Below are positions 11,595 through 54,328 of a stretch of DNA of 64,000 nucleotides, piece by piece; the stretch's first letter is position 1; every line of letters begins with the position of its first letter. The translations under genes and the position numbers were made by a program. The DNA is taken from contig CAWINB010000001.1 of NCBI GenBank assembly GCA_963837465.1, positions 297,036 to 361,035 of the forward strand, in the 5' to 3' direction. The notes under the pieces are model-generated. The model saw only the letters and a program-made list of their open reading frames with translations. It had not been told where the DNA came from and searched no databases. The stretch is from Candidatus Doudnabacteria bacterium. Its GTDB lineage: Bacteria > Patescibacteriota > Doudnabacteria > UBA920.

Positions 11595-11679
11595 TGGTGC
11601 CGGAGGTGGGACTTGAACCCACAAGCCTTTCGGCGCGCGCTCTTGAGGCGCGTATGTTTGCCAATTTCATCACTCCGGC
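11595..11679 (-). tRNA. tRNA-Leu(CAA), class II, CCA encoded
   Basis: Acceptor gccggag/ctccggc; anticodon arm cgcgc-cuCAAga-gcgcg; variable arm ccgaaaggc; T tgggttcaagtccca; a-cca. Confidence 0.85.
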
Positions 11680-14134: not shown

Positions 14135-15328
14135 CTATAAAAACATATACAACAGACTAAAACACGCCGCTAACATAAATAGTACCATAAAGGCGGAAGT
14201 TAGGCTAAAACCCAAGGCCAGAGCCAGGTTAAACAAAAACGAGCCGATTATTACGGATAAAATTTTGCCCACGGCCAGGGACTGTTCGTAAAAAACCACG
14301 TAGCGCATAATATGGGTTTCCTGGGCGCGCTGGTAGGTCAGGGTGGTCAGCGGGATGGAAACCAGGTCTTTGCCGGTGCGCGACAGCGAGTCGGCCGCGA
14401 ACACAGTATAAGGAGTCAGAGCTACGAGGCGGAACAGCCAGAATAAAAAATAAAAAAATGAGCCGACCTTGAGCAAAAAACGCTTATTATACATATCCGC
14501 CACTTTGCCAATATAAACCGCCAGGACCGTGGCAATAAAAGTCGCGATGGTTACAAGCAGGCCGCTCTTTTCGTAACTTCCCACAATAATAAAAATAAAT
14601 ACCGGCCAAACATTGAGCAAAATCATCTCCTCGCCAAAACCCAAATAACCCAAAAACTTTTTGGGGAAAGTTTTAAACAATTCCCAGGTGTGCCGGTAAT
14701 GGTAAGGCTTGGGCAAAAAAACTTCCTTTTGCAAAAACAGCGGCACAAAAGAGCAGGTGTAAATGGCCGAGGCAATTACAAAGGTAAGGCGGATGCCAAA
14801 ATGCTGGGACAACAGGCCGCCAAAAAACGGACCCGCGATGCTGGCCAAATTTATGATGGCGTAAAGCACGGAGTATTCGCGACCTCGTTGCTGGTTTTGG
14901 GCGAAACGGGAAACCGAGGCGTCAAAGGCCGGCCAGTAAAGGCTTTTGTTGATGCCGTAAAAAATCGGCGCCACCCACAGCAAGTGGTGATTATCCTGCC
15001 CGGCGTATAAAAAAACCCAGTAAAGGATTTGCGGGGGGATGGAAAACAAAATCCCGTGGGAATAGCCAAAGCGCGCGGCAATTTTTCCGCCAAAGACAAT
15101 ACCGACAAGGTAGACCAAATAGACAATGCCGTTAAACCACAAAATTTGCGGAATGGTTAAATGAATAACCGCGTACAGAAAAATCGGCTCAAAAATACTG
15201 ACAATGGTCAGGGCGAAATTGGCTATCCCCACCGAAGCGTAAAGCTCGCCGATTTCCCGGCGGAGCTTGGTGGTGAAGTAATGGCGAAAGTGGAAATCCG
15301 GGGACATAAATCGCGGTTTCGTATGCAC
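14135..15328 (-). CDS. MFS-type transporter
   Basis: About 12 predicted transmembrane helices, 397 aa. Confidence 0.6.
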   Translation of the reverse strand: MHTKPRFMSPDFHFRHYFTTKLRREIGELYASVGIANFALTIVSIFEPIFLYAVIHLTIPQILWFNGIVYLVYLVGIVFGGKIAARFGYSHGILFSIPPQILYWVFLYAGQDNHHLLWVAPIFYGINKSLYWPAFDASVSRFAQNQQRGREYSVLYAIINLASIAGPFFGGLLSQHFGIRLTFVIASAIYTCSFVPLFLQKEVFLPKPYHYRHTWELFKTFPKKFLGYLGFGEEMILLNVWPVFIFIIVGSYEKSGLLVTIATFIATVLAVYIGKVADMYNKRFLLKVGSFFYFLFWLFRLVALTPYTVFAADSLSRTGKDLVSIPLTTLTYQRAQETHIMRYVVFYEQSLAVGKILSVIIGSFLFNLALALGFSLTSAFMVLFMLAACFSLLYMFL

Positions 15329-15355
15329 TAGTGTACTAGTACACTAGTGCATACG
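15320..15355. repeat. 36-bp perfect palindrome, family C (core GTACTAGTAC)
   Basis: cgtatgcactagtgtactagtacactagtgcatacg; intergenic. Confidence 0.9.
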
Positions 15356-15364
15356 ATAAAGGAA

Positions 15365-16124: not shown

Positions 16125-19100
16125 CTATATAACAAAATTTATCAACCTATGTTTGACGTAAATAGTCCTTTTCGGTTGCTGACCAGATAATACAGATTTA
16201 ATCGCGCTCAAATTCAAGGCCTGCCGTGTGATTTCTTGCTCATCGGTAAAAGTCGGCACATTTATTTTTCCCTTAACCTTGCCATTGATTTGAATGACGA
16301 TATCTACCGTTTCATCAATAACAAACTTAGCATCCCATTCCGGCCACTGTTCCAATTGAAGCGATTTTTTGCCGCCCAGCAGCTGGTTTAACTCTTCGCT
16401 AATATGGGGCGCGAAAGGATAAAGCAAAACTAAGAACTTTTTAAAGTTTTCCTTGCTTATATTTCTATGATAACTCATTATCCCTGGCCGCTCTGCCATT
16501 CTTTTGTGGCCAGAATCGCCGGAACCAGCCATTTCCTCGCGCGTGGAATAAATCTGGTTGACTAAAATCATAAAAGCCGGTACGCAGGTATTAAAACGGA
16601 AGTTTTCAATATCCTCGGTAACTTTTTTTATTGTCTTATGCAAAAGTTTATAAGTTTCGCCGCTTGTAAATTCCGGTCGTCCGCTGTTTTTTGCCTGGGA
16701 TATCTCTACTCCTATTTTATAAACTTTTTCTAAAAATCTCTTAACTCCCGCGACTCCTTTGTCGTTCCAGGAAACCATAGCTTCGTGGGGTCCCAAAAAC
16801 AATTCATACATACGTAAAGTATCGGCTCCGTCAGATTTAACTATATCATCCGGGTTCACTACGTTGCCGCGGCTTTTGCTCATTTTTTCCCCGTCAGAGC
16901 CTAAGATTATACCGTGAGGCTTGCGCAAAACATAAGGTTCTTTAACCGTAACCAAACCCTGGTCGTATAAAAATAAATTCCAAAAACGGCTGTACAATAA
17001 ATGCAAAGTCGTGTGCTCCATGCCTCCAAAGTAAATATCCACCGGCGTCCAATGCTTTTGGTTTTTTAAGGCGGCGAATTCTTTTTTATTTTTTGGGTCG
17101 GTATACCTAAGCCAGTACCATGAGCTTCCCGCCCACTGTGGCATGGTATTGGTCTCGCGCTTAGCCGGCCCTTTGCAAACCGGGCATTTGACGTTTACCC
17201 ATTTGGTAATGGAAGCCAAAGGCGATTCCCCTGTCCCGGTTGGTTCGTATTTTTTAACAGGCGGCAGTTTAACCGGCAAATCTTTGTCCGGTACGGGAAT
17301 CCATCCAACGTCGCGTTTTAGAGATATAAAACTTAGAGATTGATTAAGGACTTCGGGTTCTTTTTTGGCCGTAAAATGTGACTTTACCGTGCCGGTTTTT
17401 ACAACATCGACCCCCAACGCCGACGCAAAAGACTCGCCGTCGGAAACTGGCACCGCATAATCGCTTATATCGTACAGGCAAACAAATTTTTTACAATTGT
17501 TTTTTATAGTTTTAAAGTCAAAGCCTTTTTTTAACGCCGCTGTTACTGTCGCTCTTTGTTTGCCGTCCAAAAATTCACCGGAAAATGGGGTACCGGCCAA
17601 AATTAAAGCGTTTATTTTTATTCCCCTCTCTAAAAGCCGCAATGCCACCACACCCCCGAAAGAATGACCGACTACAACTGTACTGTCGTCAAATTTAAGT
17701 TTTTTTATCGCAAATTCTGCCTGCTCTTCATCACTGGGATTTTTACTGTGCGGTAAATTGGCCGCCTGTACTTCAAAGCCTCGGTTTTCTAGCTCCTTTT
17801 TTAACCAGGGAATAAAAGCATCTTTTGTTGTTTCGCCTTTACCATGCAAAATCACAAAACGTTTTATATTTGAATCTTTTAAAGCGCACTTGGCGCAATG
17901 AACCAAGGGAATCGGCTCGCCCCAATACCTTTGCCTGCTAAATACCCAATCGCGGAGTTTATAGTTAGTAACGTATTTACCGGCGCCTTGAACTACGCTA
18001 AAATCAGCAATTGCTTTTCTGGCTTTAAGCGTGTCCATACCCGTGAATTGGCTGGCGTTAAGCATTACGCCTTCGCCCGTATAAGCTTCGGCCATTTCCT
18101 CAACTTTAATTTGTTTATCTTTTGGCTGGATAACGAGCTTAAACGGCAGGCCGTATTTTTTGGCAAACTCAAAATCGCGCTGGTCGTGAGTTGGAGTGCA
18201 TTTTACAATACCGGTTCCGTAATCCATAATGGCAAAATTAGCAATATACAGAGGCATTTTCCAGCCGCCAAAATGGTTTATAACGTACTTGCCCAAAAAA
18301 TATCCGGATTTTTCTTTTTCAATGTTCAGAGGGTCTTTTATTTTTTCCTCAATGCACTTTTTTATAAACTCATTGGCTCCTTGTTCGTATTTTGTACCTT
18401 TAACCAATTTTTCTATTATAGGATGTTCCGGCGCGATGACCATAAAAGTCGCGCCCCAGGTCGTATGCGGCCAAGTGGTAAATGTAGCGAGCTTGATATC
18501 CATCCCGTCAACCTGCCAATATTCTTCCAGTCCTTCCGATTTTCCAATCCAGTTTTGCTGCTGCTGCTTTACGGCTTCGGGCCACGCGGGAAGGTTTTTT
18601 AGCCCTTCCAATAATTTTTCCGCGTAGGCCGTAATCTTTAAATACCATTGGCGCAATTCTTTTTTTTCCACAAGCGTGCCGCAACGTTCGCAACGGCCGT
18701 CTATGACTTCCTCATTGGCAAGGCCGGTTTTGTCTTTTGGACACCAGTTAATCAGACCCGTAGCCTCGTAGGCTAAACCCGCTTTGTAGAATTGCAAAAA
18801 CAACCACTGCGTCCATTTATAATAATTTGGGTCAGTGGTGTTTACTTCGCGCGACCAGTCAAAGCTCATTCCCCAGCTTCGCAATTGCCGCTTGGCATTT
18901 TTTACATTTTTTGCCGTTGAAATGGCCGGGTTAACGCCGGTCTTAATGGCATAATTTTCCGCCGGCAAACCGAACGCGTCCCAACCCATTGGAAAAATAG
19001 TTTCAAAGCCTTTTAGGCGATTGAACCTGGCCGTAACATCACCGGCAACATATGGCCGCAAATGTCCCATGTGCAAACCCTGGCCCGAAGGATACGGAAA

Positions 19101-23559: not shown

Positions 23560-24594
23560 TTATTTCTTAATTTTGTCGCGCAAACCTTTTAAAATTTTAA
23601 TATCTATTTTGACTTTATCATGCTCCGTTTCCAAAATCAAGGGGAATGGGGATAACAATTGACCTTTGACAATTAACGATTGACAAAAGGTCATAATCGC
23701 GGCAAAACCTTTTTGGCCGATTTTTCCGTCGCCAATGTGGTCGTGTCGGTCTTTGCGGCCGCCCAAATCAATTTTGGAGTCGTTAATATGCGACATTTTT
23801 AGCCATTTTAGGCCGATTACTTTATCAAATTTTTTAAAGGTTTCGGCCACCGCCTCACCATCGCGAAGATCATAGCCGGATGAAAAGGCGTGCTGGGTGT
23901 CAAAACAAATGCCGCCAAAGGTTTTAAATTTTACCAAAGGTTCCATAAGGTCAGCCAAATCCTCAAAACTATGGCCAATGACTTCGCCGGCTCCGGCCGC
24001 TATTTCCAGCAAAAATGCCGCTGAACCCGTGTAGCCGCTTAAAACTTTTGCCAAACCTTTTTTGGTCTGCTCAAAAGCTATTTCGTGGCCGAGATCTTTT
24101 GCCGAACCTAAATGCGTCATTACGTATTTGGCGCCAATTAAGCTCGCGCGTTCCAATTCCTCGCGCACTACGGACGATGAACCGTGGAATATGCGCGGCT
24201 GGGCCGAGCCGAAATTTATAAAATAGGGGCAATGGACGACAAAAACTCCTCCAACCGCCTCCCCCGCTTCGCGGGTACCCCTCCTTTTCAAGGAGGAGAG
24301 GCTCCGCGGAGCTGCGGTCAACCCCTCCTTGTCAAGGAGGGGTGTCCCGCCTTTGCGGGACGGGGTGACTGGAGTTAATGGATAATATTTTTCCATTTCT
24401 CGTTTAAATCGCTGCACAATTTCCGGCGTCAGCTCCGGAGCTTTGCCGCCCATGGGCGGCCGGGTAAAAATCTGGAACGTCTCGCAACCTAAATCCGCGG
24501 CATTTTTCGGCGCGTTAAAAACCCCTCCCGCGGCACTGACGTGGCAACCTATTTTAAGCATGTGACGTTGAGTGTCAAGGGTCACCCTTGACAC
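23560..24594 (-). CDS. nfo: Endonuclease IV with an ~45-aa in-frame insertion encoded by a palindromic element
   Basis: LKIGCHVSAAGG...; TIM-barrel Nfo motifs; insert PLTPVTPSRKGGTPLLDKEGLTAAPRSLSSLKRRGTREAGEAVGG coincides with repeat family A copy 2. Confidence 0.8.
   Translation of the reverse strand: MSRVTLDTQRHMLKIGCHVSAAGGVFNAPKNAADLGCETFQIFTRPPMGGKAPELTPEIVQRFKREMEKYYPLTPVTPSRKGGTPLLDKEGLTAAPRSLSSLKRRGTREAGEAVGGVFVVHCPYFINFGSAQPRIFHGSSSVVREELERASLIGAKYVMTHLGSAKDLGHEIAFEQTKKGLAKVLSGYTGSAAFLLEIAAGAGEVIGHSFEDLADLMEPLVKFKTFGGICFDTQHAFSSGYDLRDGEAVAETFKKFDKVIGLKWLKMSHINDSKIDLGGRKDRHDHIGDGKIGQKGFAAIMTFCQSLIVKGQLLSPFPLILETEHDKVKIDIKILKGLRDKIKK
24262..24361. repeat. Palindromic mini-element family A, copy 2, inside nfo
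   Basis: cccgc-ttc-gcggg; ctcctt-ttca-aggagg; ag-GCTCCGCGGAGC; cccctccttg-tc-aaggagggg; gtcccgc-cttt-gcgggac. Confidence 0.75.
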
Positions 24595-24608
24595 TGGCTA
24601 GGTTCTAA

Positions 24609-53479: not shown

Positions 53480-54328
53480 TCAAGCAATTTTTCCTGTATT
53501 TTTGGAATTTTTTAAAAAATACCGCAAAAACTCTTTAGTTACGTTAAATTTTGTCAGTTTTTCAAAGCTTTCCAGCCCCGGGAAGCGGTTAACTTCCAAT
53601 ATATAGAGGCGGTTGTTTTTTTGCAGAATATCCACTTTGGCCAGTTCGCGGCCAAGGGTTTTGGAGGCGGCTTGGGCCAAGGCGGCTACTTTTGGGACGA
53701 CTGATGATTTAACGGCTTTGTAACTCTGAAAGTCAATCTTAAATCCCAAATCCGCAATCTTAAATCCCAGGATTACCGGCAACGTTTTATAGCCAACCGT
53801 TATAACTTTGTATTCATAATCCGCTTTTATAAATTCCTGGACCAGCCATTCTTTTTTAGGATGCGGGGGCAGCACTTTTTTAAATTCATCTCCGTTTTTT
53901 ATTATAAAAACATTCCTGGCCTTAAAACCATAATCCCATTTTAAAATGAGCGGAAACTCGTACTGCACTAATCCGCGGCCGCGGATTAGTGCAGTAGGCG
54001 GAATCGGCAGACCGGTTTTTTTTAATTTTTGGTAATCCGCCCATTTGCCCCGGCCTAAAATCCCGTCCGCGATGTTTGAGTCTACAACTTTTTTCCCCGC
54101 GGCTTTAAACTGTTTTGCCAGCTTTATAATTTGCGGCAAGTATTTGGCGCTGCCGTTTATGTAAGGGTTGCGGATGTATAAAGCTTTATAATCGGAAATA
54201 TTGACTTTAAATTTTTGCCTCCTAAAATCATCGGCGCTGATTATTTTGACGCCAACCCCCAAAGCTACGGCTTCTTTAAGCAGTCTTTTAGTGGCGTAAC
54301 TATTGCTTGAGGAAACAATTAAAATCAT
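53480..54328 (-). CDS. ATP-grasp fold protein (RimK/GshB-like ligase)
   Basis: LYILEVNRFPGLE; 282 aa; contains an in-frame 36-bp perfect palindrome at 53961-53996. Confidence 0.6.
   Translation of the reverse strand: MILIVSSSNSYATKRLLKEAVALGVGVKIISADDFRRQKFKVNISDYKALYIRNPYINGSAKYLPQIIKLAKQFKAAGKKVVDSNIADGILGRGKWADYQKLKKTGLPIPPTALIRGRGLVQYEFPLILKWDYGFKARNVFIIKNGDEFKKVLPPHPKKEWLVQEFIKADYEYKVITVGYKTLPVILGFKIADLGFKIDFQSYKAVKSSVVPKVAALAQAASKTLGRELAKVDILQKNNRLYILEVNRFPGLESFEKLTKFNVTKEFLRYFLKNSKNTGKIA

What the first reader, a model, noticed from the sequence alone, without database searches (positions are those of the whole stretch)
24262..24361. Palindromic mini-element family A: one intergenic copy and one copy inserted in-frame in endonuclease IV
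Two copies at 1249-1283 and 24262-24361 share one architecture: a GC hairpin with a TTC loop, a pyrimidine-rich hairpin (ccttccctt-aaaa-agggaagg or ctcctt-ttca-aggagg), then (a)ag and the 12-bp palindrome GCTCCGCGGAGC. The second copy lies inside nfo, keeps the frame, and adds ~45 residues, so Nfo is 344 aa rather than ~285. In-frame colonisation of housekeeping genes by hairpin repeats is the hallmark of Rickettsia palindromic elements. Finding the same behaviour here suggests an undescribed RPE-like mobile repeat in this lineage.
Basis: seen in the sequence. Interest (0 to 1): 0.7.

Follow-up and report, generated by a model that had tools for sequence, protein, structure and literature searches.

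The report
Triplex-motif DNA repeat inside nfo gene
A 127-base multi-hairpin repeat sits in-frame inside the endonuclease IV gene of a Doudnabacteria-like (CPR) bacterium; it belongs to the already described BoxC / intrastrand-triplex-motif class, reported in E. coli K-12 as always between genes, but here and in related genomes it lies inside many housekeeping genes.

Summary
GCTCCGCGGAGC occurs exactly twice (0.13 expected), each time beside a GC mini-hairpin and a pyrimidine-arm/purine-arm hairpin. The true extents are 1217-1283 and 24249-24375. The nfo copy adds 43 codons in-frame, in a disordered alpha-to-beta loop on the face of the TIM barrel opposite the active site.

Related CPR genomes carry such repeats in-frame in Nfo, TatD, MetRS/LeuRS, Map, TGT, GrpE, GatB, S7, ATP synthase gamma and others. 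The same hairpin is read in different frames in different orthologues, so conservation is at the nucleic-acid level.

The repeat is not a new kind, however. Its "terminal inverted repeats" are G/T-rich third strands that mirror the purine arm (G*G, T*A, A*A). That is the BoxC / PIT / TMECO intrastrand triplex motif (Holder et al. 2015). Of 124 such hairpins, 95 have a matching third strand (5.8 expected), and it covaries with its own hairpin.

The nfo copy is an inverted doublet of two units; the intergenic copy is a singlet. New here are the in-frame intragenic location and a variant with a mini-hairpin in loop 2. Mobility is plausible (a clean 180-nt presence/absence indel at 89% identity) but unproven: no target-site duplication and no transposase were found.

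The parts
23560..24561 (-). nfo (endonuclease IV), 333 aa from the ATG at 24561; host gene of the element
   Evidence: ORF list. Pfam AP_endonuc_2, E = 1.8e-28. 2287 homologues, the best annotated as deoxyribonuclease IV of Doudnabacteria/Patescibacteria. PDB Nfo matches.
24249..24375 (-). Complete composite element: an inverted doublet of two triplex-motif units, 127 nt. It encodes residues ~60-106 of Nfo (YPLTPVTPSRKGGTPLLDKEGLTAAPRSLSSLKRRGTREAGEAVGGV).
   Evidence: AF2 pLDDT is about 40 for residues 68-101, which lie between helix 46-59 and strand 107-110.
24249..24262 (+). C-rich box CTCCAACCGCCTCC. Its complement GGAGGCGGTTGGAG, on the gene-sense strand, is the third strand of unit b.
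   Evidence: 6/7 triads with purine arm AAGGAGG. In orthologues this box covaries with the H3 allele.
24263..24275 (.). H4 mini-hairpin CCCGC-ttc-GCGGG (gaa loop on the gene-sense strand). It forms loop 2 of unit b.
   Evidence: The stem covaries across orthologues: CCCGC, CCCCAC, CCACCC, CCGCC, CCGCCC.
24278..24298 (.). H3 pyrimidine-arm/purine-arm hairpin (7 perfect pairs, 24280-24296). It contains the 3-nt CTC indel that distinguishes the window from strain L081.
24301..24312 (.). GCTCCGCGGAGC. This is the central hairpin of the doublet collapsed to zero loop. Other copies have GCTCCGCGG...(4-60 nt)...CCGCGGAGC.
   Evidence: The same collapsed centre is present in L148.
24321..24343 (.). 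H2 hairpin ACCCCTCCTT-gtc-AAGGAGGGGT (10 bp)
24344..24361 (.). H1 mini-hairpin GTCCCGC-cttt-GCGGGAC. It forms loop 2 of unit a.
24362..24374 (+). G/T-rich third strand GGGGTGACTGGAG of unit a (consensus GGGGTGGTTGGAG). Read on the gene strand it encodes TPVTP.
   Evidence: unit a scores 7/10 triads on the 10-nt arm and 6/7 on a 7-nt core, so it is slightly degenerate. The consensus GGGGTGGTT gives 9/9 triads in L001.
1217..1283 (-). Singlet unit in the rpsG-fusA spacer, starting 32 nt downstream of the rpsG stop. Parts: box ACTCCAACCCTTCC (1217-1230), H1 (1231-1246), H2 CCTTCCCTT-aaa-AAGGGAAGG (1249-1269), tail AAGCTCCGCGGAGC (1270-1283).
   Evidence: The third strand GGAAGGGTT gives 9/9 triads with purine arm AAGGGAAGG. 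This is three-way covariation relative to the nfo copy.

Best explanation
The two loci are members of the G/C-rich intrastrand triplex-motif repeat class (BoxC = PIT = TM/TMECO). A unit consists of a C-rich box, an optional GC mini-hairpin, a hairpin with a homopyrimidine 5' arm and a homopurine 3' arm, and a GCTCCGCGG tail. On the opposite strand this reads pyrimidine arm - loop 1 - purine arm - loop 2 - G/T third strand.

When that strand is single-stranded (replication, repair, a transcription bubble or a transfer intermediate), the third strand can fold back on the hairpin. It then forms an antiparallel purine-motif triplex with G*G.C, T*A.T and A*A.T triads. The copy at 1217-1283 is one unit. 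The nfo copy is two units tail to tail, one triplex motif on each strand, with their tails forming the central palindrome.

Shown:
- the architecture;
- the three-way covariation;
- dispersal to non-homologous sites;
- in-frame residence in a disordered alpha-to-beta loop away from the active site.

Inferred:
- The element spreads or is retained as DNA, because the fold itself is what is recognised or tolerated.
- It is selfish or near-neutral for Nfo.
- In compact CPR genomes with little intergenic space and probably weak selection, copies survive inside genes only where they keep the frame and encode P/T/S/G/E/K-rich flexible loops.

The means of spread is not known.
For: 1. Triplex rule. 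Of 124 distinct pyrimidine-first hairpins in 1.46 Mb, 95 have an adjacent third strand with at least k-1 correct triads, and 53 are perfect. Random windows of the same loci predict 5.8 and 0.4. Swapping flanks between hairpins gives 34.7 +/- 4.4 (maximum 49) and 6.4 perfect, with 68 distinct purine arms. The third strand therefore covaries with its own hairpin.

2. Covariation within the family.
- H3 allele AAGGAGGAG goes with GGAGGTGGTT.
- H3 allele AGGGGGAG goes with GGAGGGGGT.
- Window copy 1 pairs AAGGGAAGG with GGAAGGGTT.

3. Polarity. There are 127 pyrimidine-first hairpins against 12 purine-first and about 6 expected. This is the polarity the motif requires.

4. Published class. The consensus is CCCTCNCCC N3-6 GGGNGAGGG N3 GGGNGAGGG. 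It forms a triplex in vitro, is multi-copy, and occurs as inverted pairs. The L008 nfo insert and many others fit this consensus with a 3-nt loop 2, the commonest loop-2 length (36 cases). E. coli carries a relative of the unit.

5. Dispersal.
- Full doublets lie in TatD, TGT and LeuRS of L006 and in GrpE, ADH, M50, GatB, ABC transporter and ATP synthase gamma of metagenome contigs.
- At least 120 metagenome stretches match the pattern.

6. Nucleic-acid rather than protein constraint. H3 is read as SLSSLKRRG, SPPYKGG, SPPDKGE or SLSSFSRRS in orthologous Nfo proteins.

7. Tolerated site. The insert has pLDDT about 40 while the barrel has pLDDT above 90. All three Nfo hot spots are alpha-to-beta loops.

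8. Not an mRNA feature. The third strand is on the sense strand in 38 in-ORF copies and on the antisense strand in 30.
Against: - Triplex formation is inferred from sequence rules only. Holder et al. found no stable triplex in double-stranded DNA or in vivo.
- The window's nfo copy has slightly imperfect third strands: 7/10 triads on the 10-nt arm of unit a and 6/7 for unit b.
- Loop 2 is 13-20 nt with its own hairpin. That is outside the published 1-6 nt loops, so this variant has never been tested biophysically.
- The same G tracts could instead form a G-quadruplex.
- Covariation could partly reflect amplification of a few internally consistent master copies rather than selection on each copy.
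- Nothing here shows how copies move.
- The 'in ORF' calls rest on stop-free stretches. They are backed by Pfam for 9 hosts and by public gene calls for the nfo neighbourhood.
Confidence: 0.62

Rival explanations
1. It is an RPE-like or MITE-like non-autonomous transposon. The outer boxes are true terminal inverted repeats bound by a transposase supplied in trans. Copies in genes are survivors of random insertion.
For: - Copies lie at non-homologous sites, as singlets and doublets, with a nested insertion in L006 4320-4480.
- Occupancy of the Nfo sites is patchy on the Nfo tree.
- L023 and L087 nfo are 89.2% identical with a single clean 180-nt indel at site 1.
Against: - No target-site duplication is visible at any junction.
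- Singlets keep the box without any partner repeat, and the box covaries with the hairpin arm. The triplex rule predicts this; a terminal-repeat model does not.
- No box pairs lie at IS-like spacing in 1.5 Mb.
- Copies within one genome (L006) differ clearly in their stems and are not near-identical.
- Holder et al. found no link of TMECO to transposons.
- Occupied nfo alleles of different subfamilies share a Y(Y/F)P junction, which hints at one old occupied allele followed by turnover.
Confidence: 0.2
2. The hairpins act in the mRNA. They would pause ribosomes, mask Shine-Dalgarno-like GGAGG purine arms with an anti-SD-like CCUCC arm, or set mRNA stability. They would be kept for that reason.
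For: - The purine arms (AAGGAGG) are SD-like and are always paired with their complement.
- Some copies sit immediately upstream of start codons, for example upstream of nfo in L019, L024, L046 and L055.
Against: - The third strand covaries with the hairpin, and purine-motif triplexes are reported not to form in RNA (PMC4666352 introduction).
- The motif is on the antisense strand in 30 of 68 in-ORF cases.
- PIT elements showed no promoter or terminator activity in E. coli.
Confidence: 0.07
3. The segment is a functional protein insertion in Nfo, a lineage-specific linker or interaction loop. The hairpins are incidental to its codon content.
For: An insert at the same site is present in many orthologues. 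It is hydrophilic and does not disturb the predicted barrel.
Against: - The reading frame of the same DNA module differs between orthologues.
- The same DNA occurs between genes and in unrelated proteins.
- Length ranges from 10 to 60 residues, and close relatives lack the insert altogether.
- pLDDT is about 40.
Confidence: 0.03
4. The palindromes arise locally and repeatedly by replication slippage or template switching at fragile sites. There would be no common descent between copies.
For: - The element is a mutational hot spot. One of only two differences in 12 kb between two strains is a 3-nt slip inside H3.
- The central loop varies from 0 to 60 nt.
- Holder et al. link the motifs to local instability.
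Against: - Template switching makes inverted repeats. It does not make mirror-type G/T third strands with T opposite A.
- The ordered multi-module architecture and the box sequence are shared by unlinked loci and by contigs of very different GC content.
Confidence: 0.04
5. The class is the same, but the relevant non-B structure is a G-quadruplex (or an i-motif on the C strand) formed by the purine arm plus the G-rich box, not a triplex.
For: TMECO reads G3N3G3N3G3N3G3, a canonical quadruplex pattern (consensus). The window's units contain GG/GGGG tracts.
Against: - A quadruplex does not need the complementary pyrimidine arm. It also does not predict that A positions of the purine arm are mirrored by T or A in the box, as observed (53 perfect cases).
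- CD and NMR of TMECO oligonucleotides indicated a triplex.
Confidence: 0.04

Closest known systems
BoxC / PIT elements / TM-TMECO intrastrand triplex motifs (Bachellier-Hofnung 1990s; Hoyne and Maher 2000; Holder et al. 2015, PMC4666352)
   Same: - Order pyrimidine arm - purine arm - G/T third strand with mirror symmetry.
- G/C-rich.
- Multi-copy and dispersed.
- Loops vary more than stems.
- Pairs occur in inverted (palindromic) configuration.
- Associated with local indels.
- No linked transposase.

Sister-genome copies fit the published consensus exactly.
   Different: - In E. coli K-12 the motif is 'always located intergenically'. Here 69% of hairpins lie inside long ORFs, as do 20 of 23 low-GC metagenome copies, all in-frame.
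- The window's variant uses AAGGAGGGG-type arms and a 13-20-nt loop 2 that is itself a GC mini-hairpin.
- It also has a GCTCCGCGG tail that forms a central hairpin in doublets.
- The host lineage is CPR/Patescibacteria, which is not discussed in the parts of that study I read.
Rickettsia palindromic elements (RPE; from my own knowledge: Ogata et al. 2000, Claverie and Ogata 2003)
   Same: Roughly 100-150-nt hairpin-forming repeats inserted in-frame into housekeeping genes of a reduced-genome, host-dependent bacterium. They add surface peptide segments without destroying the fold.
   Different: - No sequence relationship was shown.
- RPEs are not described as triplex motifs.
- The unit here also occurs in free-living high-GC bacteria, and a relative occurs in E. 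coli.
- The architecture here is modular (singlet or doublet).
REP / REPIN elements with RAYT transposases (from my own knowledge: Bertels and Rainey 2011)
   Same: Short palindromic singlets occur, and inverted doublets form a longer hairpin. The doublet resembles the replicative unit.
   Different: - REPs are extragenic.
- REPs begin with a conserved GTAG-type tetranucleotide.
- REPs are tied to a RAYT gene.

None of these three features was seen here.
GC-cluster and double-hairpin elements in mitochondrial genes (from my own knowledge: yeast GC clusters, Allomyces DHEs)
   Same: GC-rich palindromic modules invade AT-richer genomes, including coding regions.
   Different: They occur in organelles, no triplex rule has been described for them, and the sequences are unrelated.

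Membership tests
BoxC / PIT / TM intrastrand triplex motif | Watson-Crick hairpin with a homopyrimidine 5' arm and a homopurine 3' arm, G/C-rich | tested here: met
   Window hairpins at 1249-1269, 24280-24296 and 24321-24343. In 1.46 Mb there are 127 pyrimidine-first hairpins against 12 purine-first and about 6 expected.
BoxC / PIT / TM intrastrand triplex motif | A third G/T(A) segment on the same strand, 3' of the purine arm and antiparallel to it, giving G*G, T*A and A*A triads (class II purine motif) | tested here: met
   - Window copy 1: 9/9 triads.
- nfo unit a: 7/10 triads on the 10-nt arm, 6/7 on a 7-nt core.
- nfo unit b: 6/7 triads.
- Family-wide: 95 of 124 against 5.8 expected, and 34.7 after swapping flanks.
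BoxC / PIT / TM intrastrand triplex motif | Published TMECO geometry: 9-nt stems, loop 1 of 3-6 nt, loop 2 of 3 nt | tested here: not met
   The window units have loop 1 of 3 nt, but loop 2 is 13-20 nt and forms a mini-hairpin. Sister-genome copies such as the L008, L026 and L024 inserts do meet it. Loop 2 of 3 nt is the commonest length, with 36 cases. The window's copies are therefore a variant.
BoxC / PIT / TM intrastrand triplex motif | Many dispersed copies per genome; pairs in inverted configuration on opposite strands | tested here: met
   - Five family members lie in 21 kb of L006.
- At least 120 metagenome stretches match.
- The nfo copy is an inverted doublet.

The copy number in the window's own genome is unknown beyond 2 loci in 64 kb.
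BoxC / PIT / TM intrastrand triplex motif | Intergenic location (as reported for E. coli K-12) | tested here: not met
   The nfo copy is intragenic. 88 of 127 hairpins lie in long ORFs. 20 of 23 low-GC copies are in ORFs, against 8 of 22 high-GC copies.
BoxC / PIT / TM intrastrand triplex motif | The single strand actually folds into a triplex (CD, NMR) | not testable with these tools
   Shown only for TMECO oligonucleotides by Holder et al.. ViennaRNA does not model triplexes.
Rickettsia palindromic elements | In-frame insertion of a hairpin repeat into conserved protein genes, in surface loops | tested here: met
Rickettsia palindromic elements | Sequence membership in RPE-1 to RPE-8 families; restriction to Rickettsia | tested here: not met
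   The restriction part fails: the host is Doudnabacteria-like Patescibacteria. The sequence-membership part was not tested, because no RPE consensus was available to compare against.
MITE (non-autonomous DDE transposon) | Terminal inverted repeats plus a target-site duplication | tested here: not met
   The ends are complementary in doublets, but singlets carry one box only. No duplication is present at junctions in W, L001, L006, L082 and L087.
MITE (non-autonomous DDE transposon) | A partner IS with the same ends | tested here: inconclusive
   No box pairs at IS-like distance in 1.5 Mb of loci. Whole genomes were not available.
REP / REPIN-RAYT | An associated RAYT (Y1 transposase) gene flanked by the repeats; a conserved 5' GTAG-type tetranucleotide | not tested
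   No search for Y1 transposases was possible across whole genomes. By inspection the units start CTCCAACC rather than GTAG.

The most novel reading that the evidence does not exclude
In Doudnabacteria-like CPR bacteria, intrastrand triplex motifs, including a previously unsearched subclass with a structured loop 2, are a genome-wide in-frame coloniser of essential genes: aminoacyl-tRNA synthetases, S7, GrpE, ATP synthase, Nfo.

Their three-way covariation, maintained inside coding sequence against codon constraints, would be the first comparative-genomic evidence that the triplex (or another three-strand fold) is selected in vivo. The selection could act on propagation of a structure-specified mobile DNA or on a host function at single-stranded DNA. 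That would turn the 25-year-old question of whether BoxC/PIT triplexes matter in cells into one answerable by covariation analysis on thousands of CPR copies.
Probability: 0.3. Interest if true: 0.75.

Novelty: new variant of a known kind. Interest (0 to 1): 0.6.

Why it matters
BoxC/PIT/TM repeats have been known since the 1990s. They form triplexes in vitro, but they have no demonstrated function, no known means of spread and no evidence of folding in vivo. In E. coli K-12 they were reported as always intergenic.

This window and its relatives show the same kind of motif living inside essential genes, translated as disordered loops. Its three strands covary over deep divergence.

- This gives a natural experiment on selection for a non-B DNA fold.
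- It is a second, independent case (after Rickettsia RPEs) of repeat-driven loop insertion in proteins of reduced genomes.
- It is a practical warning: CPR protein-length variation, odd P/T/S/G/E/K-rich segments and split Pfam hits can come from these repeats.

Tried and rejected
- **Peptide profile search.** A profile of the insert (alignment A2) against 5.8 billion proteins gave no hit at E <= 0.01, probably because of composition bias and database size. It could not be used to count host families.
- **Rfam.** Nothing came near threshold for the element. The best match was MIR1858 at 28.7 bits against a gathering score of 137.
- **Covariance model.** The MAFFT alignment of nine full elements (A3) was not consistent in register across hairpins, so I did not build a covariance model or use the count of structure pairs. 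I parsed modules and counted pairs and triads with my own scripts instead.
- **Plasmid search.** BLAST of the hairpin-loop unit against plasmids gave only chance partial hits.
- **Autonomous partner.** A search for box pairs at IS-like spacing found none.
- **S7 insert.** I tested whether the window's S7 insert is a decayed copy. It contains no recognisable motif.
- **Considered and rejected.**
  - An intein or intron: the segment is too short, in-frame, and has no catalytic motifs.
  - An uptake signal sequence: the stems are not constant.
  - An assembly artefact: an independent assembly agrees.
- **Literature.** Searches for CPR together with palindromic, in-frame or triplex terms found nothing relevant.
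Full report
**Observation**

The window is about 44% G+C. At 24249-24375 it holds a G+C-rich block made of four perfect short hairpins and the 12-nt palindrome GCTCCGCGGAGC. The same palindrome, preceded by the same kind of GC mini-hairpin (TTC loop) and a pyrimidine-arm/purine-arm hairpin, lies at 1217-1283.

The palindrome occurs exactly twice. With up to 1 mismatch, 0.13 matches are expected and none of 100 shuffles reach the observed 3.

The second locus lies inside nfo (23560-24561, minus strand; Pfam AP_endonuc_2) and keeps the frame. A second, independent assembly (L081, Logan) is 99.97% identical over 11,956 bp and contains the element. The only differences are one SNP and a 3-nt CTC slip inside hairpin H3 of the element.

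**The insert in Nfo**

The closest Nfo proteins come from Doudnabacteria and other Patescibacteria. They range from 282 to 401 aa. Insert-free orthologues read EMxKY-x(F/L)xD-FVVHCPY at this point. The window has 47 residues there instead of 4.

T. maritima Nfo (2x7v) aligns as two blocks, query 1-59 and 109-295. An AlphaFold2 model (mean pLDDT 85.8, pTM 0.83) gives a confident TIM barrel. Residues 68-101 have pLDDT below 50 and lie between helix 46-59 and strand 107-110.

Two further variable sites in orthologues also fall in alpha-to-beta loops. One is before PLILE(T) and one is after KYEG. By general TIM-barrel knowledge, these loops are on the face opposite the catalytic C-terminal ends of the strands.

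**DNA rather than protein**

At all these sites, the extra DNA in every orthologue examined consists of one to five perfect hairpins. Nearly all have a pyrimidine 5' arm and a purine 3' arm. The encoded peptide is not conserved, and the same hairpin is read in different frames: SLSSLKRRG, SPPYKGG, SPPDKGE, SLSSFSRRS.

Across 80 related loci plus the window (1.46 Mb), I counted perfect hairpins with at least 7 bp and at least 50% G+C:

| Hairpin class | Observed | First-order Markov control |
|---|---|---|
| Pyrimidine arm first | 127 | about 6 |
| Purine arm first | 12 | about 4 |

Eighty-eight of the 127 lie in stop-free stretches of at least 120 codons, with at least 15 codons on each side. 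The hosts near nfo are Nfo (16 genomes), class I aminoacyl-tRNA synthetases (11), TatD (11), an M24 peptidase (9), TGT (6), Sua5 and a GGDEF protein (gene calls).

**Anatomy of the family**

I compared the window's nfo insert with copies in other genes of L006 (TatD at 14994-15133, LeuRS region at 17134-17272, TGT at 4250-4483) and with eight orthologous nfo copies. This gives a fixed order:

- outer box ACTCCAACCACCCC;
- mini-hairpin H1;
- hairpin H2 (CCCCTCCTT nnn AAGGAGGGG);
- AAGCTCCGCGG, then a loop of 0-60 nt, then CCGCGGAGC;
- hairpin H3;
- mini-hairpin H4;
- outer box GGAGG(T/G)GGTTGGAG

.

Stems differ between copies but remain paired. H4, for example, appears as CCCGC, CCCCAC, CCACCC, CCGCC and CCGCCC, each with its complement.

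The window's 12-nt palindrome is the central hairpin with its loop lost. Both arms contain CCGCGG, so a deletion between them gives GCTCCGCGGAGC. The same form occurs in L148.

Copy 1 of the window is a single left unit ending in that tail. Identical singlets ending GCTCCGC(GG) occur in L090, L127, L150, L152 and L164. The family therefore consists of a unit and of tail-to-tail inverted doublets of that unit.

**What the unit is**

Of 84 matches read, 52 had a complete H2 hairpin:

- 25 were in low-GC, CPR-like contigs;
- 27 were in contigs of 54-71% G+C, where only the single unit is present.

Excluding matches within 150 nt of a contig end, 20 of 23 low-GC copies lie in long ORFs, against 8 of 22 high-GC copies.

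Simpler neighbours in those contigs read CCCTCACCC nn CCCTCTCCC nnn GGGAGAGGG. BLAST of that form hits 4270 of 5426 complete E. coli genomes in unannotated spacers such as deoB-deoD. It also hits plasmids of Klebsiella, Aeromonas, Pseudanabaena and Azospirillum.

A full-text search for these strings led to Holder et al. 2015 (PMC4666352). That paper describes the BoxC / PIT / TMECO intrastrand triplex motif:

- consensus CCCTCNCCC N3-6 GGGNGAGGG N3 GGGNGAGGG;
- 23 copies in E. coli K-12, always intergenic;
- five pairs in inverted configuration;
- triplex shown in vitro but not in vivo;
- no promoter or terminator activity;
- no link to transposons;
- association with local instability.

**Testing the triplex rule here**

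The 'terminal inverted repeats' of the window's family are exactly the third strands that this motif requires:

- purine arm AAGGAGGAG is mirrored by GGAGGTGGTT (T*A, T*A, G*G, G*G, T*A, G*G, G*G, A*A, G*G);
- arm AGGGGGAG is mirrored by GGAGGGGGT;
- on the other strand, AAGGAGGGG is mirrored by GGGGTGGTT;
- in window copy 1 the unusual arm AAGGGAAGG is matched by GGAAGGGTT, 9 of 9 triads.

Results for the 124 distinct hairpins:

| Measure | Observed | Random windows, same loci | Flanks swapped between hairpins |
|---|---|---|---|
| Third strand with at least k-1 correct triads within 25 nt | 95 | 5.8 | 34.7 +/- 4.4 (max 49) |
| All triads correct | 53 | 0.4 | 6.4 (max 13) |

There are 68 distinct purine arms, so the third strand covaries with its own hairpin.

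Loop 2 is 3 nt in 36 cases, as in TMECO. A second mode lies at 18-20 nt, where the loop is the GC mini-hairpin. Its GCGAAGC/GCTTCGC core is, from my own knowledge, a notably stable DNA mini-hairpin.

In the window only these three units pass a relaxed scan, beyond two chance-level candidates; the chance level is about 0.9. The nfo copy's third strands are slightly degenerate (7/10 on the 10-nt arm of unit a, 6/7 for unit b).

**Mechanism**

What is conserved is the ability of one DNA strand to form a hairpin plus a third strand. The introduction of the cited paper states that purine-motif triplexes do not form in RNA. The motif is on the antisense strand in 30 of 68 in-ORF copies. An mRNA role is therefore unlikely, and the fold can matter only while DNA is single-stranded.

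I infer that the repeat is a DNA-level, selfish or near-neutral element. Its propagation or retention depends on that fold. It persists in nfo because the insert is in-frame, hydrophilic, disordered and far from the active site.

**Is it mobile?**

Evidence for:

- The family occupies non-homologous sites in many genes. Pfam confirms GrpE, Zn-ADH, M50, reverse transcriptase, GatB, ABC transporter, S7, ATP synthase gamma and DUF6580 as hosts, several with the domain match split in two by the insert.
- Occupancy of the three Nfo sites is patchy on a crude NJ tree.
- L023 and L087 nfo are 89.2% identical, with one clean 180-nt indel at site 1.

Evidence against a classical transposon:

- There is no target-site duplication.
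- Singlets have a single box.
- No box pairs lie at IS-like spacing.
- Copies within a genome are diverged.
- Occupied nfo alleles of different subfamilies share a Y(Y/F)P junction. This fits an old occupied allele with later turnover.

The mode of spread stays open.

**Novelty**

The class is known. Within the searchable library, two things appear undescribed.

- The first is systematic in-frame residence of these motifs inside housekeeping genes of a CPR lineage, behaviour otherwise known from Rickettsia RPEs.
- The second is a subclass with a structured loop 2 and a tail that builds a five-hairpin doublet. The published finder, limited to loops of 1-6 nt, would have missed it.

I rate it a new variant of a known kind, with moderate to good interest.

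**Limits**

- No whole genome of the source organism was available, so its copy number is unknown.
- 'In gene' is based on stop-free stretches, supported by Pfam and public gene calls for a subset.
- The tree is a simple NJ on identities.
- Triplex formation is inferred from sequence rules.

Noticed in passing
window 58699-58820 (-): Full-length match to LOOT RNA (Rfam RF03000): 84.9 bits against a gathering score of 46.4. Four tRNAs lie at 7994-8064, 11598-11679, 55925-55996 and 62300-62373.
   Followed up: no
window 1315-1905 (-), insert at about 1630-1750: Ribosomal protein S7 is 196 aa and carries a ~40-residue A/K/P/D-rich insert (AMAATAPVANKPADDKTAAAKPSDKDKLPAPKK). An orthologue in metagenome locus L154 has a triplex-motif unit (TPTTPARQTGHPSLEKEG) at the start of the same insert. 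The window's insert has no recognisable motif.
   Followed up: partly
window 511-1314: The rpsG-fusA spacer is unusually long, about 800 bp. It holds a perfect 30+30-nt palindrome (561-621) and a small plus-strand ORF with an SD-like leader that looks like a two-helix membrane protein (about 745-969).
   Followed up: no
window 24571-24595: A perfect 11-bp hairpin (AGTGTCAAGGG-tca-CCCTTGACACT) lies between the M16 peptidase stop (24609) and the nfo ATG (24561). In L019, L024, L046 and L055 the same position holds pyrimidine-arm/purine-arm hairpins.
   Followed up: partly
L006 4260-4320 and 4385-4435; L094 nfo; C-termini of P0005 and P0042: A second repeat module (TCATTCGGCT...GCTCAGGG...GAGCGGAGTCGA, peptide ...FGYRSGSPRAESRGD...) is nested inside the loops of H1 and H3 of triplex-motif doublets. 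It also occurs at the Nfo C-terminus of some orthologues.
   Followed up: no
window 24296-24298 versus L081: Over 12 kb the two strains differ only by one SNP (window 19828) and a 3-nt CTC slip inside hairpin H3. This fits the local instability reported for these motifs.
   Followed up: yes
L002 and L062, nfo site 1: A different insert: a 19-bp perfect hairpin (GACAGAGGTGTCCCCTCTGC...) that is not a triplex motif. It is identical in both arms between the two genomes, although the flanking codons differ at several synonymous sites.
   Followed up: no
window 15319-15356, 53961-53996, 62473-62511, 63535-63568: Four other long perfect palindromes (15-19-bp arms). None of them fits the triplex rule. 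The one at 62473-62511 lies about 100 nt from a tRNA gene.
   Followed up: no
L088, L091, L093, L101, L103, L107, L110, L112, L113, L117, L120, L121 and others: Contigs of 54-71% G+C carry the same box + GC mini-hairpin + CCCCTCCTT/AAGGAGGGG unit, mostly outside ORFs. Some subfamilies share upstream sequence (CCGAAACG...), and L121 has a tandem pair. The host organisms were not identified.
   Followed up: partly
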